Origin: an uncultured Gammaproteobacteria bacterium
Lineage (GTDB): Bacteria; Patescibacteriota; Microgenomatia; Levybacterales; UBA12049
Assembly (NCBI GenBank): GCA_964521295.1
Contig: CAZFRF010000001.1
Coordinates: 850,066 to 914,065 of the forward strand
Length of the DNA stretch: 64,000 bases
Reading direction: 5' to 3'
The notes beneath the pieces are model-generated. The model was not told where the DNA came from, made no database searches, and saw only the letters and a program-made list of their open reading frames with translations. A program made the translations under genes and the position numbers. Numbering within the stretch: position 1 is the first letter of the stretch; each line of letters opens with the position of its first letter. Shown in pieces: positions 1-23,902 of this stretch.

Positions 1-3000
1 TATATCTTTCTTGATCTCTAGATCCACTGGAGACTTGAACTGTTCCATCATAATCTTCAATGGCTCTTCCAACAACCCTACTGCTTTTAGTCGCTTTCAT
101 TGCAACTCCAGGTACACTTGATGAAGTTAAGTAGTCATTAGTACGAATTGGACCATTTTCTAGGGACACTTTTACAACAACTCTTCCCGCGAGTCCAATT
201 GCTTGAGGATAGTGATCTTCAGGAATAGTTGAGTCTCCTAATACATCTCCATTTGGTCCAGTTGGAATTGTTGAAACAACTCCGATTAAGTTTTGATCAT
301 ATGGAGTAGTTGGCTTGACAACTTGATATTTAAATCTGGCATCAGAACTGGCAACTAAGCTAACTAAATCTCCAGGTTCCATGTCTTCCGTTCCTGGATA
401 ATACTCAGCTATATCAGTTGCAGATCCATTACAGTCATTAATATTTGAATCGGCTTGAGCACCGTTTGTGCCATGGCAAAACGCAAATGTGCCGGATACA
501 TTTTGGATATCTAGTTGTATATTTCCTTCAACATCGAGTCCGCCTGCACCAATTCCAACTTCGCCTCCATTATTATTGAGCCATAGTTTTGATGTGGTTC
601 CATTGAGTCTTGCCTGCAGCTCATTGTTATCAAATCCTACATTTTGGCCTCCAGTGTCTCCGATTATAAATGTTCCAGCATTGGATAAAGATACGTCTGG
701 ACCCCAAGTTATAGCCAGCTGAGCTCCAGGATTACTTGTTCCTATGCCTACATAGCCATTATTAGCAATAGTTAAAGCAACGTTACCTATTCCTGCTCGA
801 TATACGGTTGATAGTGAAGCGGCTGATTCACCTGATCCTCCGACTGCAAAAATATATGAATTTCCGTTTACAGTAACTAGTGTAGTTCCAATATAGGCTA
901 CGTTTTGAGGAAGTTGCGATTGTCCTGAGCTCGACCATGTGCCAGGATTACCTGAAGAATCTAAGGCAGTTTTGTATACAGCATTGCTTGATGTAACAGC
1001 GTTGTTATCTCCACTTCCAATAGAATAAATATAAGTTTTATCATTTAAGGTAACTATTTCTGTTCCACCTTCCTGTCTATTCATAGGTAATCCAGTCACT
1101 GAGCTAAATGTTCCTAAGGTACCGTTGGATGGATTAACAGCTGCTTTATACACAGTACTGCGTCCTTGGGAGTCTCCACCGCCCACATAATAAACATATG
1201 TACTACTTCCAATAGTTGCACTAACAGCTCCACCGCCACCTCGATTGGCAAGTAGAGGAGAAGTGGTAGAGAATGTTCCTAAGGTACCATTACTATTAAC
1301 AGTTGCTTTATAAACTGTAGATGTAGGATTGGTGTTTACAGCGGTTGAATTAAATCCTCCCATTGCGTAAATATAGGTTGTTCCTCCAACAGTTGCAGTT
1401 GTGACAGCTGGTTCAAGTCTGGTTGCAAGAATAGGAGAAGTTGTTGCAAAAGTTCCTGGATTACCATCACTGTTGCTAAGCGTTGCGTAATAAGCGGTTG
1501 ACTGAACTGAGCCACTTGATCCACCAATAAGATAAACATATGTACTTGATCCAATAGTTGCGGTTGTTGCGCCTCCTCCCCAGCGTATGCCTGGTAATGC
1601 ATTGGCGGTTGAACTAAATGTTCCTGCGTTACCAAAGGTTGCATCAACTCTGGATTTATAAACGGTAGAGAGGCTTGTTCCACCACTGTTTTGTCCCCCT
1701 AATGAGTAAATATAAGTTGTTCCGTTTACACTAGCGCTTGTGATTGAGCCAAAAGTATCATTTAGGGCTTGGGGTAATTGACTCTGATTTGCTGTTGAAA
1801 AACCATCTCCTATGTCTCCATTTCCTTCAGTTCCACCTGGTGAAACCATGAAATTTAATTTACTACCATTTAGTACATAGTTGCTAAAATTATTTGTTCC
1901 ACCGCTGTATGCTAAATTACCAGAAATAGAAGCTGATCCAGCAACATCAAGTTTTGCTTTTGGAGTTGTTGTTCCTAAGCCGAAATCACTATCTAAGATA
2001 TATGAACTATCTCCGCCCCAGGCAACTAAATGAACTTTTTTAGAACCAGTAATATATAAGTCTAAGGAACCGTTACCATTTGAGTCTGTGTTAAGAGTAA
2101 AGGCTTTGTTAGTTCCTGTCGTTGTGTCATAACCTTCAACTAAGGTTGGAGCCCCAGCGCCTACAGCTTTTATAGAAAGATACCCGGATGGTAGAGGATT
2201 GTTGATACCTACTTTACCTGCATTAGTGATAACGAATCTAGATGTTCCCGATGAGGAGGCTGCGAAGATGTCTTGATTTTCTATCTGATCAAGAATTGTT
2301 AAAGATTTGCCTGTCGTGCCTGCGGATAAGGCTCTTGTAACATAGAGTTCGGAAGTTGGGTTTGTGGTTCCCAGTCCAACTAGGCTATTTCCCGTCAATC
2401 TCAATACTTCTCTGAATGCGCTCTGATTATATCTTGTATTAAAGGTTAATGCAGAATCAATGCTGCCGTTACTAGAATCAGTAAGTAGAGCATTTATTGT
2501 TGCTGCTTCTCTTATTGTACTGCCATCATCTTCTAAATTAAATTCAAGTCTTGCTCCAATTCCATCCGCTGCGGTTCCGGTTGAAGACCTTGTTAGGTTA
2601 AGTACTGTAAGAGCAGTATTTGTCGACGCATCGTTATTAACTATTTCCATGATGCCTCCACCACCTATGCCATTGGGACTAGCGGTTCCCACACCAACTT
2701 CTCCTGCAAAATAATTATATGTTCCCGCATCTGAAGAATAGATAGAGTAAGGTGTATTAGTTTGTGTTCCAGCGGTTAAATCTCCGATATATACTCCATA
2801 AGTATTAGTAATTGTTCCAGAATTTCCAGATAGGGTTAATGATAAACCCCTTACTCCAGCAACCGTACCTGTGTCGCTATTGCCAATAGTGCCTCCAATA
2901 GCTATTAATGAACCAGTTGTGTTTTGAGTTGAAGCACTATGATTTTCAGCTGCAGCATCTAGTGCTAAATATTGTCCTGAACAAGCAACTGATGTGCAAA

Positions 3001-6000
3001 TGTTTTGCAAGAGAACTCGAGAGGTGGATTTACTTGTTGCATCTGTACCTTGGTTGTAAAAATATGTTCTATATATACTTGAGGGTGCTATTCCAACTCC
3101 AAGACTTCCGTTTACAAAGAGTCCATCACTTAAAGGTGTAAAAGTTGTGTTTGTAGCACCATTTGTAATGGTTGCATAGGTTGTTCCATTGTCCTTAAAA
3201 ATTACATCATCTCCAGCAGCGTCTAAAATGATATCTCCTGAAGAATCTAGAGTCATGTCTCCTGTAGAATTTAAGGTAAGAGTGGTAGTTGGTGAAATAG
3301 TTAACGATCCATCAGTTGTAATGTTGTCACCATTAACTGCTAAGTTGCCAACTAGAGTAAGGGCACCGGCTCCACTTAAGGTCATAGCAGTAGTTGTTCC
3401 TCCATACCATTTGAACTGTTGGCCAGTTGTACTTACGGTAGAGAACATTGTTCCAGATTCAATACCTAAAGTGTAGCCAGCAGCAGATCCACTTAGATCG
3501 TTATATAAAACAATTTTTACTCCAGAGCTATAATTTGTGAATGTTGGTGCGGCAACACCTGTGGTGTTAAAGTTAATTCTATCTGAAGTTATCGAAATAT
3601 CTCCACCACTTGGATTAATTGTTAAGTCTCCACCTGAGTTAGTAGTTAAATCTGCATAGTTTGTAGCAGATCCATTACTATCGTTATATGTTAGTCTTAG
3701 GTTAGTTCCACCAGATGAATTAATTTCTAAGGCTCTATCTGGAGCAGTTGTGCCTACGCCAATATTACCGTTTTGTAAAATTGTTAGCATGTTTTGCATG
3801 GTAATTGCTCCATCTGCGGCTCCTGCAGCATTTGATATATTAAAGCTCATGGTTCCAGTTGAGGGGCTAACGTTAATTTCGCCTCCATAATGAGCTGTGC
3901 TGCCTTGGCCAAATTTCCAACCACTGTTGTAATACGCATTAAAACCAACAGTTGGATTGGATGCGACTGTATATAGAGGGAATGATGATCCAAATTTTCC
4001 AAATGTATTTCCAGTTGCTTTTTCTATATCTAGAGCTACTTCTGGAGAAGTTGTGCCAATACCAACTTTTCCCGTAGAGCTTTCGATCATCATGTCTGCT
4101 GTTCCTGCAGCATTTGCTGCAAACCAAAGATTTTGCTGTGATCGAACAAAGACATCATATTGAGAGCTTCCTGTTATATAGGCGCCAGCTGTGCCAATAA
4201 TTCCAAACCAGCCCTTATCTGTTCCGACAGAATTTTTAAGTCCATAAAGAGTGTTAGTAGTAGCAGATGGTTGAGTTAAAGTAAGGTTATTGGTTACATC
4301 AACACTACTTGGAGTATAGATTTGTTGATTATTATATAAATATCTCCAATATCCTCCAGCTGGAATTCCGCTTGTAACTGTTCCTGCACCTGTATAGCCA
4401 TAACCGTCACCTGTATAGGTTATATGCATAGCAGCAGATCCTAAGGCTCCAGACTCACCAAGGGAGATATATGCTCCTTGAGATGTCCAGTTATCACCAG
4501 TGCTTAATGAATCTAAGACTAGTCTAGGTTGGGTTGCATCTGTGTCAGAAAGTACGTTATTTGCTGAGTTATATGTTCCTCCGATAGCATCAATGTTGCC
4601 AGTGACTGCAAGATTTGAAGAGGCGTCTAGTGTCATGCTTGTTGTAGTTCCTCGTCTGTCCCAGCTATATGCATCATAAGTATTAAAGACCATCGTGCTG
4701 CCTTTAACTCCAAGTCCATATGAATTTCCTGCTGTTGCGTCGGAGTATAAGAGAATTTGATATTCAGCAAATGTATCTAGGAATCCAGTAGCGACATTAT
4801 TTCCTAAAGTTAATTTTGCATCAGGAGTTGAATCTCCAATGCCCAATTTATTAGCAGAGTCATCCCAGAAGAAATTAGTATTGTCTTGTGAAAGAACTCC
4901 ACTAGTTCCAGCGAATACCACACTTCCTGGAGTCAAGGAGGTGTCGATTGATCCTAGATAGGTTGTGCCTGCAACTTCTAAATCACCTGTTACATAAAGA
5001 TCATCTCCTGCAAGGTCAACTATTCCTGGTGTTCCAGTTCCTATTTTTACTCCACCACCAGCTGCGTCTATTGTTAAATCACCAGATGAGGTAAGTGTAT
5101 TACCTGAAAGATTTAATGTTCCTGCTATGTCGTTTGATGTGCCATCAACATCTAGGTTACTTGATACATTTAGTGCCCCTGTTAAGGTTAACAATGCGCT
5201 AGTTCCAGCTAAGGTTGGTCCTGCGCTTCCTAATTTTATACTTCCTCTTGTTGTGTCAGACGAAGAATAAATACCCAAAGTATTGGCAACGTCAACGTCA
5301 GTTAAGAATGTGTCATCTCCAATCTTAAGCATTGATGTGCCTGCAGCTTTTCCATTGTCTGAAATATCTAGTCCAGTATCTGAGTAAATCCATCCTTCAG
5401 CTCCAATGGAATCAGTTACGAATAAATCATCTCCTGTTAAGCTAAATCCTGCTTGAGAAATAGTTTCTGATAAAGAGCCTACTAATAAGTCTCCATTTAC
5501 TGCTATATCTGCATCTATTAAAGATGCTCTGAGGGAAACTTGATCTATATATAGAGTACAAGCATTAGTTGGATTGTGATTATATATTTGAACAGCAGCA
5601 TGATAAGCATTTGCAGCTGATGTTACCTGTCCACTGTAATTATCCCAAGAGGTCGTAACTGCTCCAGAGTTTGAGTATATATCATTATAGCTTAGATAGT
5701 TTCCCCATTGGTCATACCAGATGACTCTTAAATAGAATCCATCTCCGCATGCTGTATCTACTTTTGCCCAAGTTGAGGCTGTATAGCCTGTGGAAGGGGA
5801 TACGGGTATCTTATATGAGGATATATTTTGTGACTGAGTATCTGAGCCAGTATTGGTTAAGTATAATCCCCATGCACCATCGTGATTTGCACTTTGATTA
5901 GCAATTCTTCCTCTTGTACCAGTTCCAGCTGAGTTCCAATTATCTGCTATACCTAATCCTCCAGCAAAGGTTTCGAAGCTTGGATTTGCGAGCATGTTTG

Positions 6001-12000: not shown

Positions 12001-15000
12001 AGGCTCCTGAGTTTAATGTTCCAATTGCTAATTTATCATCTGTTTTAAGAGTATCAGCTGCTGATCTGTATAAATTAGTATCTCTAGAAGCACCAAAAGC
12101 AATTCCATTGGCAGCATCAGTATTATCAGCACCAGATGATAACCAAAGAACTTGAGTATCAGCGCCTGCTATTGTTATTCCGTAATCATTAGTATCTCCT
12201 CCTGTTTGATCTTGAATATATAGACCATGATTGTTGACGATGGTGCCTGTCGAAGTAGGGTTTTGAATATGGATACCATATGCGTTAGTAATTGTAGCCG
12301 TGGCATTAGATGCTGATATAAGAGATGTTATTCCATAACAGTTTGTTATTGTTGTCCCTGCGCTAGCAGCTTGGCATTGTGACCATATGCCATATGTATT
12401 TGTAAATGTTTCAGATAGGCCACTAGACTGTAATCCTCTTGCCCAAATTCCATAAGTAGTATCTGCATCTTGTGAATCAAAATATCCTCCGTATCCAGTA
12501 ACGATTCCATTTGAAGCGTAATCTCCATTTTCATAGGATTGAGCATATATTCCTCGGCTTGTCGTTATGGTTGCGCCGTCAGTTGTGGCATAGGAAATGA
12601 ATCTACCACCGTCATTGTTAGTTACAGTACCACCCGCATTACTGTTTTGGGCAATACCATATATGCCCATATTACTTGTTACTGTTCCTGCGGCATTCAA
12701 ATTTGCAATTCCATATGTGCCGGCCGAAGTAGTTGCTGTATTACCAAAGGAAGAGAGAGTGGAGGAGCTTATTAAGGAATATCCTTGAGTTCCATAAGAA
12801 GTGTCAATTGTGTAGCCATTGTTTAATTGCGATACGTTATATCCTGCGATTGCAGTATGTGAGAACATATCGTCACTTGCAGTGGTAGTTACATAATTAT
12901 ATAGTCCATAATCTGTTCTATTTGCGTTAATAGTTCCAGTTATGGTTCGTTGAACTGTGCCTGTATATGTTTTTGCGTTAATATCTGAATTTGAATCATT
13001 TATGTCAAAAAGTCTATCTGTTCTCGCAATAGTTCCATTGCCAAGTGCTAGGGTTGGGGCAAGAGCGTTTCCGTTTGAATCTACTTGGAAAAGGTCTCCA
13101 TTTCCAACTACAAATAGCTTAGAAGGAGTGGAATCTCCAATTCCTACGTTTCCACCGTTTGGTTGAAGTAAGAGATATGATGTTGTTTTAGTAGCGTGTG
13201 ATGTTCCTTCAAGAGTAAGATTTCCATTAGCAGCAGTGTCTCCATAAACTGTTCCTGCACCATTTCTAGGCATTAACCAAATATTTCCAGTAGTATTTCC
13301 ACCGAGAGTTAAATTGTTATTAGTTGTAGTCTGAATGCTTCTTGCTCCGCCTGATAGGGTAAGGTTTCCTGCAATTGATGCAGTCGAGCCAACCGTAAGG
13401 GTATCATCGATAGTTACATCGTTGTAGAATCTAGAATCTCCATTGTCATCAATTGCGAATGATGTCCCGCCTCTAATTTGGAAAACTATTCCGTTGGTTC
13501 CAGCTGAAGGAGCAGTATTGGATGAATCCGTAGTGGCATTAATTATTAAGCTTTTAGCATTGTTAGTTGCTGAATAGCTTGTTAAAAAGTTGCCTCCAGC
13601 AGTACCGCCAATTCCAACATTTTGAGTTGTGCTTCTGCCGATATTGGCAACATCAGTAATGTCTCTAAAGGCTGATAATAAGGAAATTGGGGTGGTTGTG
13701 CCAATTCCAACATAGCCTGAGTTGTTAAGAGGGGAGAGGATTATATTCCCAGTAGTATTTCCGCCTATGGTGAGTTGTTGGTTGGCAGTAGATTGAATTT
13801 GAGCAGTGCCATTTCTGAAAGTAAATTGTCCGCCGACAGACGCTGCGCCGTCTACATCCAATATTGCAGTGGGAGAAGTGGTTCCAATTCCCAATCTACC
13901 ATTTGGTGTAATTCTCATTTGCTCTGATCCACCAAGCTTCCAGGTTAGGGTAGGTGCAGATGCGCCTGTGATTTCTTGCTCAATTATATTAGTAGCCTCT
14001 GTAAAGTTGTATTGAAAAATTGGCAGATTTGATCCACCTGCTCTTTGTAATCTAAATAATGTACCATCTCCAGTACTATTTACTTGGAGTCTAGCAAGAG
14101 GGTTAGTAGTTCCAATTCCTACATTGCCACCTGCACCATTTTTTGGCATTACAATTAAATTTCCGGCAACAGTTGCAGTTGCTGGTCCTGTTCCATTTAA
14201 GCCTAGAACTGCGAATTTTGCAGTTGCTGTAGCTGTTCCACCTAAAAGAAAGTCCATTGTTGAGTTAATTGGAGTTAAAGCTTTTCCATCAGAGGAGGTG
14301 GTCCACCAATCTGTTGGAAGTCCGCTCGCACAAGAACCCCAGGTGGGAGTTGTAGCTCCAGAAACTAAACAAAGTCCAGAGCTACCAGTTACTGCGCTTA
14401 AAGCTCCTGTTGCTGAATCAGCATATAAGACTCTATTGTTTCCGGTGAAGGAGGTAGTTAGCGTTCCTATTAAGGTTGCGGATCCTAACTGAAGCGTACC
14501 TGCTGAAGCATAAATATCATGATTTCCAGATCCACTAAACCTAAGATCTGCTCCGGTTCCACTTAATACTATGCCTGTTGCTCCACCTACTGAAATATCA
14601 CCTGAATTTGTTTGGTTTCCACCGTTATCTACGGTAAATACTGGCGCTCCAGAAACGGAAGCGCTAATTACTGGACCTGTAGAATTTTGATTTACTGTGA
14701 ATGCCGATTGTCCAGATGAGGTAGCGAGAATTGCAAACTGATCATTAACTTCAACTGCTCCTGCTGCTGTAAAAGCTCCTGCTGCTGATCTAATATTGGT
14801 AGAAAGAGTATTGTTTTGTAAAGGTTTTTGGACATCAATTTTACCAGTGCCATTTGGACTAATGACTACATTTGAATTACTAGAGTCATTAGTTGTTAAA
14901 AGTAATGGTTGACCTGAAAGCTTAAATTGTCCGCCGCTTGCTGAGAAAGCAGGTGAGGCTGATCCACCAATTGTTAGGTTTCCGGATGAGTCTAGGGCTA

Positions 15001-16582
15001 AGACAACATTTGATGTGCCTGCGGCTGTAGCAGTGATTGGAAGAAGTCCTTGTAATGTTTCAGAATTCGCTGCATAGCCGACAGTTGCAATTTGTTGCCT
15101 AGGAGTAAGCTCTCCTGTTGATTCAACGGTTACACCTAGGAACAAAGCTGCATTTTCTGCAAATAGAGTAGAGGGGATTGCACATTGTCCAGTTGCAATT
15201 GCGATTGGATTAGCGCAGGTTGGTCCACTACCAAGTAAGGTATTAAAAATACCATCTTGGTCTGGTGTTACTTTGTCTACTTCTTGCCAAAGTAAAATAC
15301 CTGCACCTGTTCCTGGAGTTTGTTGAGTGTAGATCGCAAATCTAAGATTGGTTAAAGAAGTAATAGGATTATCATTGTTATCTGTAAGTCTTCCTTGGAA
15401 GGAAAGGATTCTATTTGGTGAGGTTGGTAGGTTAGGAGCAGCTGTGATTTTAGATTGGTTTCCAAAGAAGGAATTATAAAAACCTAAAGATATGGCAACA
15501 ATAACGATAATAAATACTGCAAAGTGGAAATAGTGGGTAATTGCATATGAATGATATCTTTTGTACCAATTTGGTCTAGTAAATCTAGCGTGAAAAATAA
15601 TTCTTTGTAGAGGAGAAAGAGAACTAACGGCTATGGTTGAAGGTGCAAAAACCTTTTTAGAAATATTTCTTATACCCAATAAGTCTTTGTGGGTAATGTT
15701 TTTAATTTGAAATGTTTGGGGATTCTTGTGAAAAATTGGTTTTCCTTTGAGTGTCCAGGCTAAATCTTGTCCTTTTTTAGCAAAAGAAGCTAAAGGAAGT
15801 ATTAATGCAGCATCTAAAGCTAAGATTAATCCTTGGGATAGTTTCTGAGCAAGTCTTAAAGGAGGGAATCTGGAATATGTTTTAGTTTTAATTTCTGGTT
15901 GTGAAAATTCAGGAGTCTCAGGTATAAATAATTTTTGTTTTGCCTCATTTATATTTGTGAAATCTAATACTTTTTCAGTTAAGATGCCAGCTTCATCTGC
16001 CCAAGTTAGATATTTTCTCAAAGAAGATAGTTTTCTATTAACAGAGGCTGGCGAAAAGCCTTTGGAGCTACTTAATGCTGTCTTGTATTCTTCGATAAAT
16101 TCCTTGCTTATTCTGCCTGGTAATATTGAGTCTTCGAGTCCAGTGGCTTCCTTTGCCCAATTAATGAATTGTTTAACATCAATGATATAGTTTTTTATAG
16201 TAAGATGCGCTGCGTTAGTATCGAATAAGCTGCTTTTGAAATCCTTTAGCTTCCAATAGTCTTTTTCTTCTGGTTTATTTAAGGCTAAAGCTTCGAAAGG
16301 ATCAAAGGTTATTTGATTTTCGATCTTAAGGAATTTGAAGAATTTTCTAAGGGATGATAAGTGTCTTTGCATTGATGAAGCAGAGAAGACTGAGGAGTTG
16401 TCTTTTTTGTACTCTTCGAGTGTTTGGAAATTAACTTGGCCAGGAGTAAAGCTTGAGTTGTATTTCTGAGAAAACCAGTTAACGAAATGATTAATATCCG
16501 ATAAGTAGTTTTTTACAGTAACCTTTGAAGGCTGAACTTCTTGTGAAAATAAATAATTTTTAAAGCTTGTTAATAAATCCAT
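1..16582 (-). CDS. Giant cell-surface repeat protein of at least 5,527 codons; its 3' end lies beyond window position 1. Domain order: N-terminal 2x integrase-SAM-like (core-binding-like) repeats, one TM helix, then tail-fibre-like 'GNVGIGTTxP(D/T)xALEINS...NSGGDLTINPSG' repeat units, two CBM4_9-like jelly-roll modules, and Kelch-like blades.
   Basis: Manual reverse-complement translation from ATG (complement of 16580-16582; an in-frame stop lies just upstream at 16604-16606) stays open in one frame (codon first bases at positions congruent to 1 mod 3) all the way to position 1. The frame was spot-checked at 12002-12058 and at 1-10. The gene is absent from the ORF track because no stop lies inside the window. 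All listed ORFs in 1-16582 are short, antisense or out of frame. N-terminus: MDLLTSFKNYLFSQEV...RHLSSLRKFFKFL plus a second copy ...NRKLSSLRKYLTWA, then a hydrophobic helix HYFHFAVFIIVIVAISLGFY. Confidence 0.8.
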   Translation of the reverse strand, partial: MDLLTSFKNYLFSQEVQPSKVTVKNYLSDINHFVNWFSQKYNSSFTPGQVNFQTLEEYKKDNSSVFSASSMQRHLSSLRKFFKFLKIENQITFDPFEALALNKPEEKDYWKLKDFKSSLFDTNAAHLTIKNYIIDVKQFINWAKEATGLEDSILPGRISKEFIEEYKTALSSSKGFSPASVNRKLSSLRKYLTWADEAGILTEKVLDFTNINEAKQKLFIPETPEFSQPEIKTKTYSRFPPLRLAQKLSQGLILALDAALILPLASFAKKGQDLAWTLKGKPIFHKNPQTFQIKNITHKDLLGIRNISKKVFAPSTIAVSSLSPLQRIIFHARFTRPNWYKRYHSYAITHYFHFAVFIIVIVAISLGFYNSFFGNQSKITAAPNLPTSPNRILSFQGRLTDNNDNPITSLTNLRFAIYTQQTPGTGAGILLWQEVDKVTPDQDGIFNTLLGSGPTCANPIAIATGQCAIPSTLFAENAALFLGVTVESTGELTPRQQIATVGYAANSETLQGLLPITATAAGTSNVVLALDSSGNLTIGGSASPAFSASGGQFKLSGQPLLLTTNDSSNSNVVISPNGTGKIDVQKPLQNNTLSTNIRSAAGAFTAAGAVEVNDQFAILATSSGQSAFTVNQNSTGPVISASVSGAPVFTVDNGGNQTNSGDISVGGATGIVLSGTGADLRFSGSGNHDIYASAGTLQLGSATLIGTLTTSFTGNNRVLYADSATGALSAVTGSSGLCLVSGATTPTWGSCASGLPTDWWTTSSDGKALTPINSTMDFLLGGTATATAKFAVLGLNGTGPATATVAGNLIVMPKNGAGGNVGIGTTNPLARLQVNSTGDGTLFRLQRAGGSNLPIFQYNFTEATNIIEQEITGASAPTLTWKLGGSEQMRITPNGRLGIGTTSPTAILDVDGAASVGGQFTFRNGTAQIQSTANQQLTIGGNTTGNIILSPLNNSGYVGIGTTTPISLLSAFRDITDVANIGRSTTQNVGIGGTAGGNFLTSYSATNNAKSLIINATTDSSNTAPSAGTNGIVFQIRGGTSFAIDDNGDSRFYNDVTIDDTLTVGSTASIAGNLTLSGGARSIQTTTNNNLTLGGNTTGNIWLMPRNGAGTVYGDTAANGNLTLEGTSHATKTTSYLLLQPNGGNVGIGDSTPSKLFVVGNGDLFQVDSNGNALAPTLALGNGTIARTDRLFDINDSNSDINAKTYTGTVQRTITGTINANRTDYGLYNYVTTTASDDMFSHTAIAGYNVSQLNNGYTIDTSYGTQGYSLISSSTLSSFGNTATTSAGTYGIANLNAAGTVTSNMGIYGIAQNSNAGGTVTNNDGGRFISYATTDGATITTSRGIYAQSYENGDYASNGIVTGYGGYFDSQDADTTYGIWARGLQSSGLSETFTNTYGIWSQCQAASAGTTITNCYGITSLISASNATATITNAYGIHIQNPTSTGTIVNNHGLYIQDQTGGDTNDYGITIAGADTQVLWLSSGADNTDAANGIAFGASRDTNLYRSAADTLKTDDKLAIGTLNSGASNPLCYDGSNILSTCAAGALGTNWWTTSTDGKALTPINNTMDLLVGGNSTSSAQFAVLNIAGTLTPIASVSATAGSDATKGIYLSGNGSLQSVRNNTLTIGGSTTGNIALMPRNGNGNVGIGTSSPTEPLDISGSSTNPIYARVVNTSSGGSGFLVANSTGTNTGRFYWDNNNAKLVIGTITNNPVSFFLNNSEIARFDTSGNLGINTTTPTAKLDINGDASTSGSLVFNGSNKSIDILNGSRLDFQVSPGGDAGLTNAMTIAGNGNVGIGTTNPGTSKLNVQGGAMQQYLASGNNQGLWLHGGDTSNNYVRTENTTGNFDFGQGNNSAFITSANDPLSINVNGSTAMYFPSAGNVGIGTTGPDRALEINSATGVNLRLTYNDNNGSATNYADLVTNSGGDLSINPSGGDLITSGAFTSQNGNIYAGVNDTTGGLFHAYGNGTGSSEGGEVILYTAADYDTTVNAYNLDAYQDDFRIYQGSNTRLTITNTGLVGLGVGNTVPTSQLYVSRPLASGATGKALSIFDQIENQDIFTASASGTPVFTITRAGGISLGSNGLNYGTGSQCIAGGATASWVNCALGTNWWTTSTDGKALTPINNTMDLLVGGNSTSSAQFAVLNIAGTLTPIASVSATAGSDATKGIYLSGNGSLQSVRNNTLTIGGSTTGNINLSPSNGSGFVNISGGLGASGIIAGKNILPYQYASWETGVDGTNIPSARNVNVTSVTISTADAYDGTRSVAVSTNGSATDGYAYLNGTSSTSYNIPIKPSTKYAFSVYSKLSAGTTCSVEMYVRESDGTHRSAGGTADTSSWTRLSNTFTSNSGSTAVIIRVDANCASTTALFDGFMLEEIPTSQTYASAWSSNGNFGIRMDQNNLLGLDGSASVSGNLVLEGASRSIQSYDQNTLTIGGSTTGNITLLPNNGTGGLINNNGYIAANGNTTITGSPLTVGTNLGWKVGLWSNSFALGIANSTLAVKTGTWLSIFGSSNPANNATNSTPDTNSNINFNATTGDASISGSLVFQSASNQTIDILNGSRLDFQTSPGGDAGLTNAMTIAGNGRVGIGTTNPTAKFQVTGTSGAGGTGDFITNLQGGSVTESDLYILNSRDVNTGVGYAAKVIGVNVQNAVGAANEVYLRSNNGGITSAGAIYLGADDVNQGVFGVLGTPISSAPGTALTHLLTVKGNGNVGIGTTAPDRALEINSATGNNLRLTYNDNNGSATNYADLTTNSGGDLTINPSGSNVVIGSGNYLSVGGTTQVGQITGITSATNPSNGIDTFALTASGSYGGGIGLADGTGNFGIWTDTTGTVARFGFGTSLGALTSYMSLTNAGALTIADDFRVNGNDILDSAGTSRLTLGATTTLTNTGLTFSGTTGITASSLTSMTTGAAFTLNGTSYVRVGDTATPGTATGDDDLFVEGDLEVDGVLYTDGGIDTALTPGSVVFAGTSGVLSQDNASLFYDDTNDSLGIGTAAPGSTTRLSVAKTWGSATATEQFGIYSTINYSAADTGLKQNLRLNTGATHTTGTQANLIGLLSLVTGAGNGGTTTNAYGLWSRIDSATGHTVTNGINYGINNGTVTGTLTNQMGIQVGGLTTGTNNAGILIGEATGTNQSNLVIGSTSIPTGTYSIYNSSTDQNYFAGNVGISTTGPLTKLHVAGGSTTPAGELGSSLITGSTTAMRLAMGVDNTSTMYSWIQSVENGSTQRALSLNPIGGNVGIGTTAPDRALEINSSGGTNLRLTYNDSNGSATNYADLTTNSGGDLTIDPSGGQVVLNNTGDSSLATALSGALILGDTAGDNITMDGNEIMARTAGTTASTLFLNAEGGLVSVGAGGLTSTGTLTANGTLDANGIFTLGDGGETGAITTSDWAIDTTGNITNIGNISNTANASQPYLVLDSVGTGDDWTAQGAYISIGEGGALGSASMHITYTGNGYGYTGAGTVTSGIPAGGYWRYTYNTQNIYTPGSVQIGSNLDVDGNLNVTGLTYAANDFAVASHSAIPAPYNNTNMLANPSFETFAGGLGIADNWNSAGTGTRGRIANQSANHDGAWGLYLTNTGSDTQSQNISSYKIPVSPSTGYTASTWAKVDTACGDGFYLRVIWYDQWGNYLSYNDIYSNSGAVTTSWDNYSGQVTSAANAYHAAVQIYNHNPTNACTLYIDQVSLRASLIDADIAVNGDLLVGSLSETISQAGFSLTGDDLFVTDSIGAEGWIYSDTGLDISDNGKAAGTSMLKIGDDTFLTDVDVANTLGIYSSSDTTRGSIKLGSAGPTLAGTSALLTLTGALNVSSNLDVDGTSNDIAGTLNLSGNTLTSSGDLTIDAAGGGVKIGTGTPGIVDLAGDDLYVTGDLEVAGTTYLGSIDTSLTPGSVVFAGTSGVLSQDNTNFFWDDSANKLGIGDSTPDAKLTLGNNVATGFLDTFAEYQILLYSDATAGNSYGLGVKGSTMVFNTYDAYSWDRRGTTTSMTLDASSNLAVTGNIDAIGGTYNSANNVLSDTDATQPRLVLDSLSTGDNWTSQGAYISLGESGALGSAAMHITYTGDGYGYTGAGTVTSGIPAGGYWRYLYNNQQIYTPSSVDVTNNLTLTQPSATTNTLYGLKNSVGTDKGWFGIIGTAGAYITGSSQYDVFVRSQQNLWFAANAAGTADMMIESSTGKVGIGTTSPEVALDIEKATGNTFGKFGSSFPLYTVASNPTVGFNAYYNSGWKFGQGSTAHYGGEINVSPSTGTMSFNISNAAGAADGAITMQNMLTILQNGNIGVGTTAPDRALEINSSGGTNLRLTYNDSNGSATNYADLTTNSGGDLTINPSGGDISITSDRINFNTTGVAAPTFTNYSSGVKIVLYNDLSGSAAGYTLGIESGTMFSTVSTTGQQFKWYGGTTTAMTLSGAGALTLVGNLAVNGDNITTDGSLTISPTTTLTLNSTGDMTLDSSGDIILDAAGDDVIFKDNGTTYATITNGATNTTFTPLSDGLFVNGSLGVGIAPSSIYRTYFYNQGTDATSKSTSRVLLQNICTSVACSGQYLALDAAAENHSASTQNTTGSLIAIGGTIGNSDTGTVAGVRGLSLTLSGNSGTITNTYGVYIGDLTAGTQTNTPYSIYSSDAGTYNYFAGEVGVGTASPNGIGGGGIMEIVNNDASTNTALTVLNLTRSSTGTAADGIGARLEFNLEDDGSTIREAATINALLTDSSNGSIDSALTFNTRYNQSAFREVLRLTGNSLVGLGTTNPTSELYVTRALSAGTTGKSLTILDQIENQDIFAASSSGTSRFVITNAGKVGINNPLPSGYLSIKAVGAGAPTLVEGYDTTTGTNKAFTLNTDSNGNGSLDLYITGSKKVHLVAWGGDSSYILDSDFGLGTTTPKAKLDVAGSASISGNLAYSGGTNNFSNYVLNGSKLNFMVSPGGTEGNGDIGDGFSTANQSQLPQALNDTFGSITSASVNGTTYIYSLGGQNSGGTSLSTVYKSRVDATFGNAGTFSSTANALPGIRWGGGATTATIGSSTYVYLIGGSSGSVQSTAYYATLSNSDGNPGTFATTSPILATRLEPAVTTATVGGTTYIYAMGGFNSTAVNTNPTSTVYKATVNSNGTLGTFSTTSPLLANRGGGGAVSATIGSSTYVYYVGGGDSQGRSTVYKAAVNPSNGTLGTFSSVTGLPMNRQEGGTEIVTLNDKTYIYSIGSGDNNAVTSSNAVYKTALDSSGNPGTWSSSGQSQLPQNVAYIGTTLVTVNGNSYIFAVGGSGESAASLSTVYRAGIGNVALTIANNGYVGIGTSNPGAQLAITWGPDVSLSNAGTFIIGDTGGQNVGFDNNELQARLNGTTSKLWLNNNGGEVGIGAGGLDVEGNIQLDIQNVSGTFAFCHGTNGAQADSNINDCNGSATDIAEYYPGTEDMEPGDLVSLVASSDARFKYQVVKPTTPYDQNLIGVVSTIPTGPNGDVLGDSTIPEDHYPQAIGLAGRVVVKVSLENGPIRTNDYLTSSSVPGVAMKATKSSRVVGRAIEDYDGTVQVSSGSRDQERY
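3603..3750. repeat. Copy of a ~140-bp near-identical coding repeat (the module encoding ...NSGGDLTINPSGG...LRLTYNDNNGSATNYADL...)
   Basis: Visual alignment with 6711-6858 gives roughly 95% identity. It is more distantly similar to 8297-8435 and 10785-10920. Confidence 0.6.
6711..6858. repeat. Copy of the same ~140-bp coding repeat
   Basis: Contains 'atctccacctgagttggtagttaaatctgcatagtttgtagcagatccattactatc' as in 3603-3750. Confidence 0.6.
8297..8435. repeat. Copy of the same ~140-bp coding repeat, sub-family B
   Basis: Contains 'aaatctccgcctgaattagtagttaaatctgcatagttagttgcagaaccattgttatcattgtatgt', nearly identical to 10785-10920. Confidence 0.6.
10021..10261. repeat. Intragenic 240-bp perfect direct repeat, copy 1 (inside the giant gene)
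   Basis: Read directly: 'caatggttaaggtattgtttctaacagattgcaatg...catcagtagaggttgtccaccagttagtgcc' is identical at 10021-10261 and 11701-11941. The offset is 1680 bp, which is 560 codons, so the copies are in frame. Confidence 0.9.
10785..10920. repeat. Copy of the same ~140-bp coding repeat, sub-family B
   Basis: See 8297-8435. Confidence 0.6.
11701..11941. repeat. Intragenic 240-bp perfect direct repeat, copy 2
   Basis: Identical to 10021-10261. The 20 bp flanking upstream already diverge at a few positions. Confidence 0.9.
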
Positions 16583-17114: not shown

Positions 17115-18014
17115 ATGAAGACTCTGCCCAGAATTGTACTTATTTTTTCTTTTCTTCTTTTGTTCTTAGCAAAGGGAAGCTCAGTTTTTGCTCAACAAGC
17201 AGTTCCTTTGGTTGCCCCAAGGCCAGGAGCATCCTCAACAACAGTATCGGGGACAATAGGAAATTATTACATTACTCTTAAGGGTTATATTGCTCCTTTT
17301 GCTTCCATAGTTTTATACGGATCTGATGGTGCTTTTCTAAAAGCAGTTGTTACAGACTCAAAAGGATATTTTACAGTCACAGATTTATTAGTTAAGAAAG
17401 GTTTTTCTAAGGTTTGTTTTGATGCAATTGACTTTAAAAGACTAGGTGAATCATATTCTTGTCTTACTTTTTCGCCTATTGAGGGACCACGAACAATTGA
17501 TGGTATTTTTCTACCACCAACCCTTGGTTTATCTAGATCAGAGATAGCAGCTGGTTCCTCAGCTATTGCTTGGGGTTATTCTATGCCATATGCAATTGTA
17601 ACTGTGCACGTTGGTAATGTTGTCTATTCAACTACTGCAGATTCTAATGGATATTATCAAATTGAGCTTAAAAACGTAAAAGCTGGAGTATATTCTTTAT
17701 ACTCAACTGCGGAATTAAATGCAAAACCTTCGCTAGATCCTCAAAAAAGAGTACAGCTAAAAGCTTTGTCATGGTGGGAGCAGTTTATTGCTTGGATAAT
17801 GCAGCTTCTTAAAAAGATTTGGGTATTCTTAACTTCATTTACCATAACACCGTTTTGGATTGCTATACCAGTCTTTATCCTCATTATTATACTAATTTTA
17901 AAGATCTGGCCTGAGAAATTTACCATTCTTTATCACAATAGATTAGTAATCTTTTTTACCAAACTCTTTAGAAGACATAAGCCTCTTCATCACGAATACT
18001 TCATGGGTTATTAA
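17115..18014 (+). CDS. Secreted, C-terminally membrane-anchored protein with two carboxypeptidase-regulatory-like / Ig-like beta-sandwich segments
   Basis: N-terminal signal peptide MKTLPRIVLIFSFLLLFLAKGSSVFA. C-terminal TM IPVFILIIILILKIW. Motifs 'TVHVGNVVYSTTADSNGYYQIELKNVKAGVYSLYST' and 'IVLYGSDGAFLKAVVTDSKGYFTV' fit CarboxypepD_reg-like patterns. Confidence 0.55.
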   Translation: MKTLPRIVLIFSFLLLFLAKGSSVFAQQAVPLVAPRPGASSTTVSGTIGNYYITLKGYIAPFASIVLYGSDGAFLKAVVTDSKGYFTVTDLLVKKGFSKVCFDAIDFKRLGESYSCLTFSPIEGPRTIDGIFLPPTLGLSRSEIAAGSSAIAWGYSMPYAIVTVHVGNVVYSTTADSNGYYQIELKNVKAGVYSLYSTAELNAKPSLDPQKRVQLKALSWWEQFIAWIMQLLKKIWVFLTSFTITPFWIAIPVFILIIILILKIWPEKFTILYHNRLVIFFTKLFRRHKPLHHEYFMGY

Positions 18015-18029
18015 TTTAAACTTACTGTT

Positions 18030-19478: not shown

Positions 19479-19569
19479 GTAAATAAAATAAGTGCTACTA
19501 TTACTATCTGATTTTTAAAATCAATTGTCAAGGTTTTTTGGGCTTAATTTAGATTCAAAACTGAAGATT

Positions 19570-20559: not shown

Positions 20560-20612
20560 ATTTTTTAACTAATTTACATTATGAGCATTTTATTTTAAGG
20601 TTGTCAATTGCC

Positions 20613-22055: not shown

Positions 22056-22134
22056 TTAAATAAATGCTACTATTAATATGTATGGTTTTTGCGTATAAGT
22101 CAAGTGGTAATCTGAGGGATAAGTATACCTTGGT

Positions 22135-23145: not shown

Positions 23146-23150
23146 ATTTT

Positions 23151-23900: not shown

Positions 23901-23902
23901 AT

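What the first reader, a model, noticed from the sequence alone, without database searches (positions are those of the whole stretch)
1..16582. Giant surface-protein gene of at least 5,527 codons, missing from the ORF track because it runs off the window
Translating the minus strand by hand from the ATG at complement 16580-16582 gives one uninterrupted reading frame through 16.6 kb. It was checked at both ends and at 12.0 kb. None of the short listed ORFs in 1-16582 is in that frame. The product has no catalytic core recognisable by eye. It is built from repeated tail-fibre-like units (GNVGIGTTxPxxALEINSATGxNLRLTYNDNNGSATNYADLTTNSGGDLTINPSGG, and ...NWWTTSxDGKALTPINxTMDLL...FAVLN). The interspersed modules, Gly/Thr/Asn-rich beta-strand composition and single N-terminal TM helix are typical of extracellular fibre or adhesin proteins. 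Its size puts it among the largest bacterial proteins.
Basis: seen in the sequence. Interest (0 to 1): 0.8.

Follow-up and report, generated by a model that had tools for sequence, protein, structure and literature searches.

The report
Giant tail-fibre-like surface protein
A real 6,048-residue gene in a tiny Levybacteria (candidate phyla radiation) genome encodes a membrane-anchored protein built from the same trimeric fibre units as phage tail fibres and Bdellovibrio prey-binding fibres, so it is an unusually expanded and oddly anchored member of a recognisable kind of bacterial surface adhesin.

Summary
The minus strand from 16582 to the window edge is one open frame of 5,527 codons (chance about 1e-163). 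An identical public protein (P0089) shows the full product is 6,048 aa, so 521 aa lie off-window. The fibre/adhesin reading is largely right but incomplete. A profile of the repeated GNVGIGTTxP units matches crystal structures of Bdellovibrio MAT trimeric beta-helix fibres (E down to 6e-22). There are two CBM_4_9 modules and a six-blade Kelch-like propeller. The C-terminus carries a phi29 gp12-type (Peptidase G2) auto-chaperone with an invariant D/E pair at the gp12 cleavage position. They are cytoplasmic and hold two tyrosine-recombinase core-binding (SAM-like) domains without a catalytic domain, followed by one TM helix. This explains the public name 'site-specific integrase'. The gene belongs to a family found mostly in Levybacteria, with 679 clusters. 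The family core is about 1,450 aa (N-terminal about 800 plus C-terminal about 650). Here the core is split by a lineage-specific insert of about 4,500 aa. The gene sits in conserved synteny after secreted WxLIP-like proteins. Function is inferred: a trimeric surface fibre of roughly 150-220 nm that binds glycans. It is a new variant of a known kind, and it is not among the very largest bacterial proteins.

The parts
2..16582 (-). Giant ORF, codons 1-5527 of 6,048. It continues beyond the left edge for a further 521 codons.
   Evidence: No stop in 5,527 codons. 100% identical to the first 5,527 aa of P0089, which is 6,048 aa long.
16319..16570 (-). SAM-like (tyrosine-recombinase core-binding) domain 1, aa 5-88, cytoplasmic
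   Evidence: Pfam Phage_int_SAM_1 E = 1e-19, two stretches. AF2 pLDDT about 90, four helices. Foldseek matches XerA 5hxy at rmsd 2.0-2.4 A over about 90 residues.
15968..16246 (-). SAM-like domain 2, aa 113-205, cytoplasmic
   Evidence: Pfam Phage_int_SAM_4 and SAM_5. 32% identical to domain 1 in self-BLAST. Invariant TxKNY..D...F..W and NRKLSSxRxY motifs.
15548..15967 (-). Conserved cytoplasmic linker, aa 206-345. It holds the YSxFPPxRLxQK motif, a long amphipathic helix (aa 240-279) and the basic juxtamembrane motif RFTRPNWYKRYHSY.
   Evidence: Alignment A1. AF2 helices. Residues 271-345 have 13 K+R against 2 D+E, which by the positive-inside rule places them in the cytoplasm.
15464..15547 (-). 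Single transmembrane helix (signal anchor), aa 346-373
   Evidence: Kyte-Doolittle 19-residue mean up to 2.2. AF2 helix 347-373. Present at the equivalent position in nearly all complete orthologues.
14093..15463 (-). Family-conserved extracellular base of the fibre, aa 374 to about 830 (PRILSFQGRLTDxNDNPIT..., ELTPRQ...LQG, first NWWTTS module)
   Evidence: Covered by BLAST alignments in 53-99% of 118 family representatives. Alignment A1.
533..14092 (-). Lineage-specific expanded stalk, aa about 831-5350. It contains 16 of the 17 GxVGIGTxxP 'capping-loop' beta-helix units (motifs start at aa 819, 895, 956, 1144, 1644, 1729, 1793, 1881, 2584, 2710, 3164, 3237, 4171, 4272, 4627, 4789 and 5276), YGI-repeat stretches and internal duplications.
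   Evidence: Only 0-18% of family members align here. Motif list. Profile A6 of the units hits Bdellovibrio MAT fibre structures 8OND (6e-22), 8OJN (2e-10), 8OML (2e-9) and 8OL4 (1e-6).
9506..9835 (-). CBM_4_9 carbohydrate-binding module 1, aa 2250-2359
   Evidence: Pfam PF02018, 40.9 bits against a cut-off of 25.9.
5585..5998 (-). CBM_4_9 carbohydrate-binding module 2, aa 3529-3666
   Evidence: Pfam PF02018, 29.0 bits against a cut-off of 25.9.
728..1765 (-). Kelch-like six-blade beta-propeller, aa about 4940-5285 (period about 57 aa)
   Evidence: Kelch_1, 25.7 bits against a cut-off of 20.1. Six xTYIYxxGG...STVYK blades. Homologues carry precomputed Kelch Pfam domains.
2..529 (-). Start of the phi29 gp12-type (Peptidase G2) auto-chaperone domain, aa 5352-5527. 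It continues off-window.
   Evidence: Profile A2 hits 3gqh/6qz9/3suc (pre-neck appendage protein) at E = 5e-7 to 1e-5. Six of 20 orthologue segments hit Pfam Peptidase_G2, best 3e-10.
404..415 (-). Predicted autocleavage motif D5390-I-A-E5393 (cleavage inferred between T5389 and D5390)
   Evidence: D aligns with residue 1 of the released gp12 fragment 3gqh (DFAEYFES). D is present in 114 of 115 and E in 115 of 115 family members with the domain.
9978..10261 (-). Recent internal duplication, copy A. It pairs with 11658-11941 (96% nt identity).
   Evidence: the repeat finder family D2. The protein segments aa 1540-1648 and 2091-2208 are 86% identical.
11658..11941 (-). Recent internal duplication, copy B
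   Evidence: the repeat finder family D2.
18030..24538 (-). Conserved co-directional upstream cluster of six secreted or membrane proteins (211, 249, 336, 480, 329 and 482 aa). The 329- and 336-aa proteins are WxLIP_PGBD-like. Association with the giant gene is inferred from synteny only.
   Evidence: Homologues of the 249- and 336-aa proteins occur upstream of the family gene in 59 and 65 of the 82 related loci searched. 25 of 30 orthologues hit Pfam WxLIP_PGBD, best 4.5e-7.
17115..18014 (+). Divergently transcribed secreted 299-aa protein with a CarboxypepD_reg/Ig-like domain. It is a conserved neighbour.
   Evidence: Sub-threshold Pfam hits. Homologues in 31 related loci and in L002.

Best explanation
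The gene encodes a type II (N-in, C-out) membrane-anchored homotrimeric surface fibre of a Levybacteria (Microgenomates, CPR) cell. It is related to phage tail fibres and to the Bdellovibrio MAT prey-binding fibres. Shown by computation: a 345-aa cytoplasmic head with two recombinase core-binding (SAM-like) domains and no catalytic domain; one TM helix; an outside part of about 5,675 aa made of MAT-type beta-helix units, two CBM_4_9 modules and a Kelch-like propeller; and a C-terminal phi29 gp12-type auto-chaperone with the conserved D/E pair. Inferred: the chain is inserted through Sec as a signal anchor. The C-terminal chaperone module nucleates trimerisation and registers the triple beta-helix. 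It may then cut itself off between T5389 and D5390. That would leave the Kelch propeller near the distal tip of a fibre roughly 150-220 nm long, scaled from 0.38-0.44 A per residue in MAT crystal structures. The fibre would bind glycans on a host cell or substrate. The conserved core (N-terminal about 800 aa plus C-terminal about 650 aa) anchors and folds the fibre. The stalk between them evolves quickly by module duplication and shuffling, and in this lineage it has grown by about 4,500 aa. The role of the cytoplasmic SAM-like pair is unknown. The most likely role is as a cytoplasmic docking platform, as the RodZ HTH domain docks MreB (from my own knowledge). Binding to DNA is an alternative.
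For: The ORF is intact and the full length is 6,048 aa. There are two Phage_int_SAM domains, confirmed by the AF2 model and Foldseek hits to XerA and lambda Int core-binding domains. No integrase catalytic domain was found: NCBIfam XerC scores 73.9 bits against a cut-off of 335, matching the N-terminal approximately 100 positions of the 295-position model. The TM helix and a +13/-2 juxtamembrane charge place the N-terminus inside. Nine Cys pairs outside and a DsbA-like gene in the window fit an extracellular fold. The repeat-unit profile hits five distinct Bdellovibrio fibre-protein sequences in the PDB, and the paper describing these MAT fibres shows they are intertwined trimers with this capping-loop motif (PMC10769870). 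Foldseek's top hit for the mid-region model is also Bd3182, though weakly. Module homologues elsewhere carry S74 or G2 chaperones and are named tail fibre proteins. CBM_4_9 twice and Kelch pass their cut-offs. [quoted passage not shown] The family pattern of conserved ends and a variable middle is what tail fibres show. The context is chromosomal, with conserved synteny and no phage genes.
Against: Nothing here demonstrates trimerisation, cleavage, surface exposure or binding. The AF2 model of aa 2930-3300 is poor (pLDDT 60). PHROGs gave no tail-fibre hit, and phage genomes gave only one weak match. The window's own G2-like segment does not reach any Pfam hit by itself. 53 of 168 family sequences lack a detectable G2-like domain. 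The most conserved part of the family is the roughly 450 aa after the G2 domain, whose function is unknown. That part may be a retained functional tip rather than a discarded chaperone. The host or ligand is unknown, and the cytoplasmic SAM-like pair is not explained by a pure adhesin model.
Confidence: 0.65

Rival explanations
1. The protein is a contact sensor or membrane-tethered DNA-binding protein. The fibre reports host or surface contact, and the tandem recombinase core-binding domains act on DNA. They might regulate genes, tether the chromosome or hand over DNA. The closest analogues are ToxR-type regulators and the eukaryotic MyRF, which combines a DNA-binding domain, a phage chaperone-cleavage domain and a TM helix.
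For: The two SAM-like domains are among the best-conserved parts of the family, with invariant basic and aromatic residues. They have the fold of DNA-binding core-binding domains. A second Patescibacteria protein, P0030, has the parallel layout of 2x MerR-type HTH, a TM helix, the same fibre modules and Peptidase_S74, which suggests selection for a DNA-binding-type head on such fibres. The MyRF precedent is described in PMC8326128.
Against: No DNA binding was tested. The predicted cleavage site is more than 5,000 residues away on the other side of the membrane, so it cannot release the head as it does in MyRF. No conserved repeat or site was found in the upstream intergenic region. HTH-type domains can also serve as protein-docking modules, as in RodZ (own knowledge). 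This reading is compatible with the adhesin model rather than exclusive of it.
Confidence: 0.12
2. The protein is a structural envelope component. It might be a glycocalyx- or S-layer-like fibre, a spacer or a self-wall-binding filament that works with the neighbouring WxLIP-like proteins, rather than a host-specific adhesin.
For: The family is found in at least 238 species-level genomes, mostly Levybacteria. It has a conserved core and conserved synteny with secreted WxLIP_PGBD-like (peptidoglycan-binding-type) proteins. The C-terminal module is highly conserved across species, which is unlike a fast-evolving receptor-binding tip.
Against: The stalk is hypervariable in length (1,305 to 6,048 aa) and in content. 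It carries lectin-type modules (CBM_4_9, Kelch), which is the pattern expected for ligand or host-range diversification.
Confidence: 0.13
3. The protein is a tailspike-like depolymerase: a surface-anchored enzyme that degrades host or environmental polysaccharide.
For: The YGI-repeat stretches (aa about 1180-1500, 3040-3140 and 4560-4620) look like a parallel beta-helix (sequence). The extreme C-terminus weakly resembles K1-lyase_C (E = 1e-4, below cut-off). CBMs usually accompany glycan-active enzymes. Two GH26+CBM96 membrane proteins lie nearby.
Against: No glycoside hydrolase or lyase family was detected anywhere in the protein by Pfam, NCBIfam, PHROGs or PDB sequence search.
Confidence: 0.06
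4. The gene is a prophage or mobile-element remnant (an integrase fused to a tail-fibre gene), or an assembly artefact or pseudogene.
For: Public pipelines name the family 'site-specific integrase'. The modules are phage-like. Orthologues L001 and L002 are split into two ORFs.
Against: The integrase catalytic domain is absent. The neighbourhood is housekeeping (LeuRS, ArgRS, ComEA/EC, MreB, tRNAs) with no phage genes. Synteny is conserved across dozens of genomes. The frame is intact over 16.6 kb. The DNA repeats are short and imperfect. The splits in L001 and L002 are single frameshifts within 0.43-1.14 Mb contigs.
Confidence: 0.03

Closest known systems
Bdellovibrio bacteriovorus MAT (mosaic adhesive trimer) fibres: Bd2133, Bd3182, Bd1334, Bd2439 (PMC10769870; PDB 8OND, 8OJN/8ONB, 8OML, 8OL4)
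   Same: They share the same repeated beta-helix unit with the ...G-N-V-G-I-G-T-x-x-P-x-x-x-L capping loop (profile E = 6e-22 to 1e-6). Both have a mosaic stalk with swappable lectin-like domains, a C-terminal folding or cleavage module, and belong to a small bacterium that must attach to other cells.
   Different: MAT proteins are about 1,000 aa with a cleavable signal peptide and a conserved 130-aa beta-rich N-domain. This protein is 6,048 aa, is anchored by a TM helix after a 345-aa cytoplasmic head, and uses a G2-type rather than an S74-type chaperone. It comes from a different phylum (Gram-positive-like CPR envelope).
Bacillus phage phi29 pre-neck appendage (tailspike) gp12, MEROPS/Pfam Peptidase G2 (PDB 3GQ7, 3GQH, 3SUC, 6QZ9)
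   Same: Both have a C-terminal auto-chaperone domain. The family-invariant D-x-A-E aligns with the first residues of the released gp12 fragment.
   Different: The homology covers only about 90 residues (gp12 683-768). Here the region after the motif is about 660 aa instead of 163 aa, and cleavage is untested. The rest of gp12, a pectate-lyase-like beta-helix, is not detectably related.
Phage tail fibres and tailspikes with S74 intramolecular chaperones (K1F endosialidase, T5 pb1), and bacterial 'tail fiber domain-containing proteins'
   Same: They share the architecture of a conserved anchor, a variable trimeric stalk or receptor-binding part, and a conserved C-terminal chaperone. Module homologues in the databases often end in Peptidase_S74.
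   Different: No S74 domain is present in this protein. It is a cellular, chromosomal, membrane-anchored protein rather than a virion component.
Tyrosine recombinases XerC/XerD/XerA (the N-terminal core-binding SAM-like domain)
   Same: There are two copies of the four-helix core-binding domain (Pfam E = 1e-19; Foldseek rmsd about 2 A to XerA).
   Different: There is no catalytic domain. The domains are fused to a TM helix and a giant extracellular region, so the public name 'site-specific integrase' is a misannotation.
Giant surface proteins of other small or host-associated bacteria (Absconditicoccaceae large surface proteins, PMC13059738; Apilactobacillus Giant1-5, PMC12863079; Omnitrophota giant proteins, bioRxiv 10.1101/2023.11.21.568195)
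   Same: In each case a very large extracellular protein takes up a notable share of a small genome (here 18.1 kb, or 1.9% of a 936-kb contig). All are predicted to have attachment roles and carbohydrate-binding modules.
   Different: The building blocks differ, and no homology with these proteins was established. This protein is much smaller than the Omnitrophota giants and has a single TM helix.
MyRF (eukaryotic membrane-bound transcription factor with a phage-derived trimerising ICA domain; PMC8326128)
   Same: It combines a DNA-binding-type N-terminal domain, a TM helix and a phage tail-fibre chaperone-cleavage module. There is a weak motif-level hit (7DC3, E = 0.38).
   Different: [quoted passage not shown] Here the cleavage module is extracellular and distal. 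The hit is not significant.

Membership tests
Tyrosine recombinase / site-specific integrase (the public annotation of the family) | C-terminal catalytic domain (Phage_integrase, R-K-H-R-H/W-Y active site) | tested here: not met
   Pfam found only the SAM-like domains. NCBIfam XerC and XerD score 73.9 and 66.6 bits against cut-offs of 335 and 330, matching the N-terminal approximately 100 positions of the 295/290-position models.
Tyrosine recombinase / site-specific integrase | N-terminal core-binding SAM-like four-helix domain | tested here: met
   Phage_int_SAM_1 E = 1e-19 with two stretches. AF2 and Foldseek match XerA and lambda Int core-binding domains.
MAT fibre superfamily (Caulton et al. 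2024) | Repeated trimeric beta-helix units with the capping-loop motif | tested here: met
   There are 17 motifs. Profile A6 hits 8OND at 6e-22, 8OJN at 2e-10, 8OML at 2e-9, 8OL4 at 1e-6 and 8ON4 at 9e-4.
MAT fibre superfamily | Signal peptide followed by the conserved ~130-aa beta-rich N-terminal domain | not testable with these tools
   No cleavable signal peptide is present. The N-terminus is 2x SAM-like plus a TM helix. The MAT N-domain sequence or structure was not available to compare with aa 374-830.
MAT fibre superfamily | C-terminal S74 chaperone-protease (SDxxxK), or an alternative NS74 tip | tested here: not met
   No Peptidase_S74 hit in any scan. A G2-type chaperone is present instead. 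The protein would count only as 'NS74-like'.
MAT fibre superfamily / phage tail fibres | Homotrimeric intertwined assembly | not testable with these tools
   Only monomer AF2 was available. The mid-region model is low confidence (pLDDT 60).
Peptidase G2 (phi29 gp12-type auto-chaperone) | Sequence homology to the gp12 C-terminal domain | tested here: met
   The family profile hits 3gqh at 5e-7, 6qz9 at 9e-7 and 3suc at 1e-5. Six of 20 orthologue segments hit PF11962, best 3e-10. The window's own segment alone gives no Pfam hit.
Peptidase G2 | Conserved Asp/Glu at the autocleavage site (gp12 D692...E695 numbering is from my own knowledge; 3gqh starts at this D) | tested here: met
   D5390 and E5393 align with DFAE at residues 1-4 of 3gqh. 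D is conserved in 114/115 and E in 115/115.
Peptidase G2 | Actual autoproteolytic release of the C-terminal fragment | not testable with these tools
   This requires expression and SDS-PAGE or mass spectrometry.
CBM_4_9 carbohydrate-binding modules | Pfam PF02018 above the gathering score | tested here: met
   40.9 and 29.0 bits against a cut-off of 25.9.
Kelch beta-propeller | Kelch motif above the gathering score, with 5-7 tandem blades | tested here: met
   Kelch_1 scores 25.7 bits against 20.1. Six blades of about 57 aa. Only one blade scores individually, so the blade count rests on periodicity.
WxL-type cell-surface loci of Firmicutes (for the neighbouring genes) | WxLIP (DUF916) peptidoglycan-binding-domain protein with a C-terminal TM helix | tested here: inconclusive
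   The window proteins score below threshold (E = 0.005 and 0.02). 25 of 30 orthologues match at E <= 0.1, best 4.5e-7.
WxL-type cell-surface loci of Firmicutes | WxL-domain proteins in the same cluster | tested here: not met
   No WxL-domain hit among 32 orthologues of the 480-, 249- and 211-aa proteins.

The most novel reading that the evidence does not exclude
Patescibacteria may have a general class of 'inside-out' fibres. In these, a phage-tail-fibre-like trimeric filament outside the cell is hard-wired through one TM helix to a tandem DNA-binding-type head inside. The head is a pair of recombinase core-binding domains here and a pair of MerR-type HTH domains in P0030. Host contact or fibre tension would then be coupled directly to the chromosome or to gene expression. 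This would be a bacterial counterpart of MyRF or ToxR built from phage parts.
Probability: 0.12. Interest if true: 0.85.

Novelty: new variant of a known kind. Interest (0 to 1): 0.55.

Why it matters
Levybacteria and other CPR bacteria are uncultured, have genomes of about 1 Mb and are thought to live attached to other cells, but how they attach is largely unknown. This gene takes up about 1.9% of a 936-kb contig. It belongs to a family found mostly in Levybacteria that public pipelines mislabel as 'integrase'. Recognising it as a MAT or tail-fibre-like trimeric fibre with a G2 auto-chaperone gives a concrete, testable candidate for the host- or substrate-recognition organelle of this lineage. 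It also extends the Bdellovibrio 'chimeric fibre' principle to a second, unrelated group of ultra-small bacteria. The length range from 1,305 to 6,048 aa around a fixed core offers a natural series for studying how fibres grow by module duplication. The unexplained cytoplasmic pair of recombinase core-binding domains is a new architecture, mirrored by a MerR-HTH version in another Patescibacteria protein, and is worth an experiment.

Tried and rejected
I tried several ways to extend the contig leftward. The source genome is not among the GTDB representatives (no relative found). No near-identical contig exists in the JGI metagenomes (best 59%). P0089 is not in the gene-position index. The full length came instead from the representative protein library.

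A direct PDB sequence search with the window's C-terminus, with an orthologue's C-terminus and with aa 381-5000 gave nothing. Only profiles worked. PHROGs gave no structural phage family. tblastn against 50,697 phage genomes gave only a weak hit to a cyanophage 'chaperone of endosialidase' gene.

AF2 of aa 2930-3300 with a 42-sequence alignment was poor (pLDDT 60). Its Foldseek result was therefore used only as a lead, which later confirmed at the sequence level.

The promoter scan of the upstream region was not above shuffles, and no terminator was found. No notable repeats that could be binding sites were found in the intergenic region. Literature searches for the motif string and for CPR plus tail fibre returned nothing relevant.

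I considered and rejected a second TM helix at aa 248-270. It is weakly hydrophobic, contains D and P, and is followed by a +13/-2 segment that should stay cytoplasmic.

The GC content of the gene (0.39-0.40 against about 0.35 for the rest of the window) was not pursued as a sign of horizontal transfer. I did not test it; the stalk is rich in Gly, Thr, Ser and Ala, which may account for it.


Full report
**Observation**

Translating the reverse complement of window 1-16582 from the ATG at 16580-16582 gives 5,527 sense codons and no stop. The same frame has several stops immediately upstream of the ATG. From the local base composition a stop is expected in 6.6% of codons, so the probability of such a frame arising by chance is about 1e-163. 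No ORF of at least 150 aa is listed for 1-16582, because the tool omits ORFs that run off the source.

The start codon is supported by the 16 homologues in alignment A1, which begin at the same position with the same motif.

The longest DNA repeats inside the gene are 284 nt at 96% identity and 168 nt at 92%. There are no long exact repeats that would invite collapse. An independent Logan assembly of run SRR14271372 is 100% identical over window 15718-18141, which covers the first 865 nt of the gene.

A profile search of 1.84 billion representative proteins returned P0089. It is 6,048 aa long, 100% identical to all 5,527 window residues, and of NCBI origin on a 935,984-bp contig. The gene is therefore 18.1 kb, and 521 codons lie beyond the window. 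I had predicted about 480-530 missing residues from orthologues before finding P0089. P0089 probably derives from the same assembly as the window, so it fixes the length but is not an independent check of the middle of the gene.

**Organism and context**

The window is ordinary chromosome. It encodes LeuRS, ComEA, ComEC, an MBL-fold protein, ArgRS, an M16 peptidase, a DsbA-like thioredoxin, sortase, MreB, five tRNAs and an L10 leader, and it has no phage genes.

The closest relatives of the N-terminal module and of the neighbouring genes are MAGs titled Candidatus Levybacteria or Levyibacteriota, from the Microgenomates group of the Patescibacteria (CPR).

**Anatomy of the N-terminus**

Residues 5-88 and 113-205 are two Phage_int_SAM domains (E = 1e-19), the core-binding domain of tyrosine recombinases. 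There is no catalytic domain. NCBIfam XerC scores 73.9 bits against a cut-off of 335 and matches the N-terminal approximately 100 positions of the 295-position model.

An AF2 model built on a 17-sequence alignment gives two confident four-helix bundles (pLDDT about 90). It also shows a long helix at 240-279 and a TM helix at 347-373. Foldseek places the bundles on the XerA, lambda Int and IntI core-binding domains, at 2.0-2.4 A over about 90 residues for XerA.

The only strongly hydrophobic segment is aa 346-373. The 75 residues before it carry 13 K+R against 2 D+E and include the family-invariant RPxWYxxY motif. By the positive-inside rule the N-terminus is cytoplasmic and everything after aa 373 is outside. 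Nine cysteine pairs in the outside part fit this, and a DsbA-like gene lies in the window.

**Anatomy of the outside part**

The stalk is rich in Gly, Thr, Ser, Asn and Ala, and it contains 17 G-x-[VIL]-G-[IV]-G-T-x-x-P motifs. A profile of 15 of these 62-residue units hits crystal structures of Bdellovibrio bacteriovorus MAT fibres:

| Protein | PDB | E-value |
|---|---|---|
| Bd2133 | 8OND | 6.4e-22 (three significant stretches) |
| Bd3182 | 8OJN/8ONB/8ONC | 1.9e-10 |
| Bd1334 | 8OML | 1.6e-9 |
| Bd2439 | 8OL4 | 1.4e-6 |
| Cell wall surface anchor family protein (per PDB record) | 8ON4 | 9e-4 |

The paper describing these structures shows that MAT fibres are intertwined homotrimeric beta-helices and that this motif forms capping loops. 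It also shows they are chimeric, tail-fibre-like adhesins used for prey recognition, many ending in an S74 chaperone (PMC10769870).

A low-confidence AF2 model of aa 2930-3300 (pLDDT 60) also had Bd3182 as its top Foldseek hit. I used that only as a lead.

Database homologues of the same stretch are short proteins. Several carry Peptidase_S74 or G2 domains, or are named 'tail fiber' proteins.

Pfam finds two CBM_4_9 modules, at aa 2250-2359 and 3529-3666, both above the cut-off. It also finds a Kelch motif above the cut-off. The Kelch region shows six blades of about 57 residues between aa 4955 and 5285.

**C-terminus**

The last about 140 window residues align in orthologues about 470-540 residues before their C-termini. 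A profile of this region from the window plus 19 orthologues hits the phi29 pre-neck appendage protein gp12 (3gqh 5e-7, 6qz9 9e-7, 3suc 1e-5). The family-invariant Asp aligns with residue 1 of 3gqh. Six of the 20 segments hit Pfam Peptidase_G2 on their own. In 115 family sequences with the domain, the Asp is present in 114 and the Glu in 115.

The gp12 C-terminal domain is an auto-chaperone that is cleaved off after trimer folding (PMC3357383). In the window the motif is D5390-I-A-E5393 (nt 404-415).

The extreme C-terminus, which is off-window, weakly resembles the C-terminal domain of a phage capsule lyase (K1-lyase_C, E = 1e-4, below cut-off).

**The family**

The N-terminal module defines a family of 679 clusters at E <= 1e-30 in the 50%-identity library. 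At least 238 GTDB species genomes carry it, mostly Levybacteria. Public names for it are 'site-specific integrase' or 'XerD'.

Complete ORFs in the 80 loci fetched range from 1,346 to 3,725 aa, with a mode near 1,450 aa. Several were cut off by the 10-kb flank limit. Among the 150 best representatives, full-length members (those of 1,300 aa or more) range from 1,305 to 6,048 aa. Shorter entries are mostly fragments from contig ends. This protein is the longest, and the next is 5,432 aa.

BLAST coverage of P0089 by 118 family members is:
- 0.85-0.99 for aa 1-700;
- at most 0.18 for aa about 900-5300;
- 0.65-0.92 for aa 5400-6048.

The protein is therefore the family's core of about 1,450 aa, split by a lineage-specific stalk of about 4,500 aa. 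Internal duplications within that stalk (up to 96% nt identity) are still recognisable.

Orthologues L001 and L002, within 0.43-1.14 Mb contigs, are each split into two ORFs by a single frameshift.

**Neighbourhood**

The gene is preceded on the same strand by six genes for secreted or membrane proteins (18030-24538). A divergent 299-aa Ig-like protein gene (17115-18014) lies immediately upstream. Homologues of these occur upstream of the family gene in up to 65 of the 82 related loci searched.

The 329- and 336-aa proteins are WxLIP_PGBD-like. They are sub-threshold in the window, but 25 of 30 orthologues match, best 4.5e-7. The other four have no family assignment, and no WxL domain was found.

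**Mechanism**

The domain content, the topology signals, the homologies and the family pattern are computed results. The following steps are inferred.
- The chain inserts as a signal anchor.
- The C-terminal G2-type module nucleates and registers a homotrimer, as in gp12 and in S74-bearing fibres.
- That module may cut itself off at T5389|D5390, leaving the Kelch propeller near the distal end.
- The mature stalk would span roughly 150-220 nm. This scales about 4,400-5,000 residues at the 0.38-0.44 A per residue seen in the Bd2133 and Bd3182 crystal structures (PMC10769870).
- The CBM and Kelch modules bind glycans on a host or substrate.

The conserved-ends, variable-middle pattern is the one seen in phage tail fibres.

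The cytoplasmic SAM-like pair is unexplained. I favour a docking role, by analogy with the RodZ HTH domain binding MreB (own knowledge). DNA binding is an alternative.

A second Patescibacteria protein, P0030 (1,237 aa, named 'MerR family transcriptional regulator'), has two HTH domains, a TM helix at 156-182, the same fibre modules, a Peptidase_S74 domain and a similar C-terminal end. A DNA-binding-type cytoplasmic head on such fibres is therefore recurrent.

**Comparison and novelty**

The protein works like a MAT or phage tail fibre. It meets the repeat-unit criterion of the MAT family but lacks the S74 domain, and it has a different N-terminus. I therefore do not file it as a MAT member in the strict sense. 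It is not a tyrosine recombinase.

Large surface proteins are already known in CPR and other small bacteria (PMC13059738, PMC12863079). Proteins over 5,000 aa number in the tens of thousands across life (PMC11573180), and bacterial predictions reach 85,804 aa (bioRxiv 10.1101/2023.11.21.568195). Size alone is therefore not exceptional.

I found no paper describing this family or its architecture. My verdict is that this is a real gene and a new variant of a known kind, of moderate to good interest.

Noticed in passing
window 18030-24538 (minus strand) and 17115-18014 (plus strand): A cluster of six co-directional genes for secreted or membrane proteins (211, 249, 336, 480, 329 and 482 aa) and a divergent Ig-like 299-aa protein lies next to the giant gene in dozens of Levybacteria genomes. 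The 329- and 336-aa proteins resemble WxL-interacting proteins (WxLIP_PGBD) of Firmicutes surface loci. The 480- and 482-aa pair is a tandem duplication (66% identical). The others have no family.
   Followed up: partly
window 31639-34086 and 34145-36658 (plus strand): Two tandem paralogous membrane-anchored proteins (815 and 837 aa) have almost identical first ~50 residues. Each has a GH26 glycoside hydrolase domain and a C-terminal CBM96. They are further evidence of a polysaccharide-directed cell surface.
   Followed up: partly
P0030 (from; 1,237 aa, Patescibacteria group bacterium): This protein is named 'MerR family transcriptional regulator'. It actually has two N-terminal HTH domains, a TM helix (aa 156-182), the same GNVGIGTT fibre modules, a Peptidase_S74 chaperone (SDIRIK) and a C-terminal end like that of the giant protein. 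It shows a parallel architecture with a different cytoplasmic head and a different chaperone.
   Followed up: partly
L001 (10001-14627) and L002 (10001-15822): Orthologues within 0.43-1.14 Mb contigs (one of them also recorded as a chromosome, OY970292.1) are split into two overlapping ORFs by single frameshifts. In both cases the upstream half is the piece that databases list as a 400-700-aa 'integrase'. The split is either a sequencing-error artefact or a pseudogene.
   Followed up: partly
loci L005, L010, L012 and many others: Many MAGs whose record titles say 'uncultured Gammaproteobacteria bacterium' carry this family in the same gene order as in this window, including the LeuRS-side genes. 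The titles look like placeholder mislabels for Patescibacteria bins.
   Followed up: no
L001 4545-6494 and 19619-22034: Other, shorter proteins in a related Levybacteria genome also contain the G2-like domain and GNVGIGTT modules. These genomes therefore carry several paralogous fibre proteins besides the N-terminally anchored one.
   Followed up: no
window 40146-40901, 41516-42265 and 44032-45051: A DsbA-like thioredoxin, a sortase and MreB are encoded within 30 kb of the giant gene. The giant protein has nine Cys pairs but no LPXTG motif at its C-terminus (it ends ...FNFLIVN).
   Followed up: no
window 24593-29537: LeuRS, ComEA, ComEC and an MBL-fold protein lie on the far side of the surface-protein cluster. 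This order is conserved in 21-51 related loci. It probably reflects lineage-wide gene order rather than a functional link to DNA uptake.
   Followed up: no
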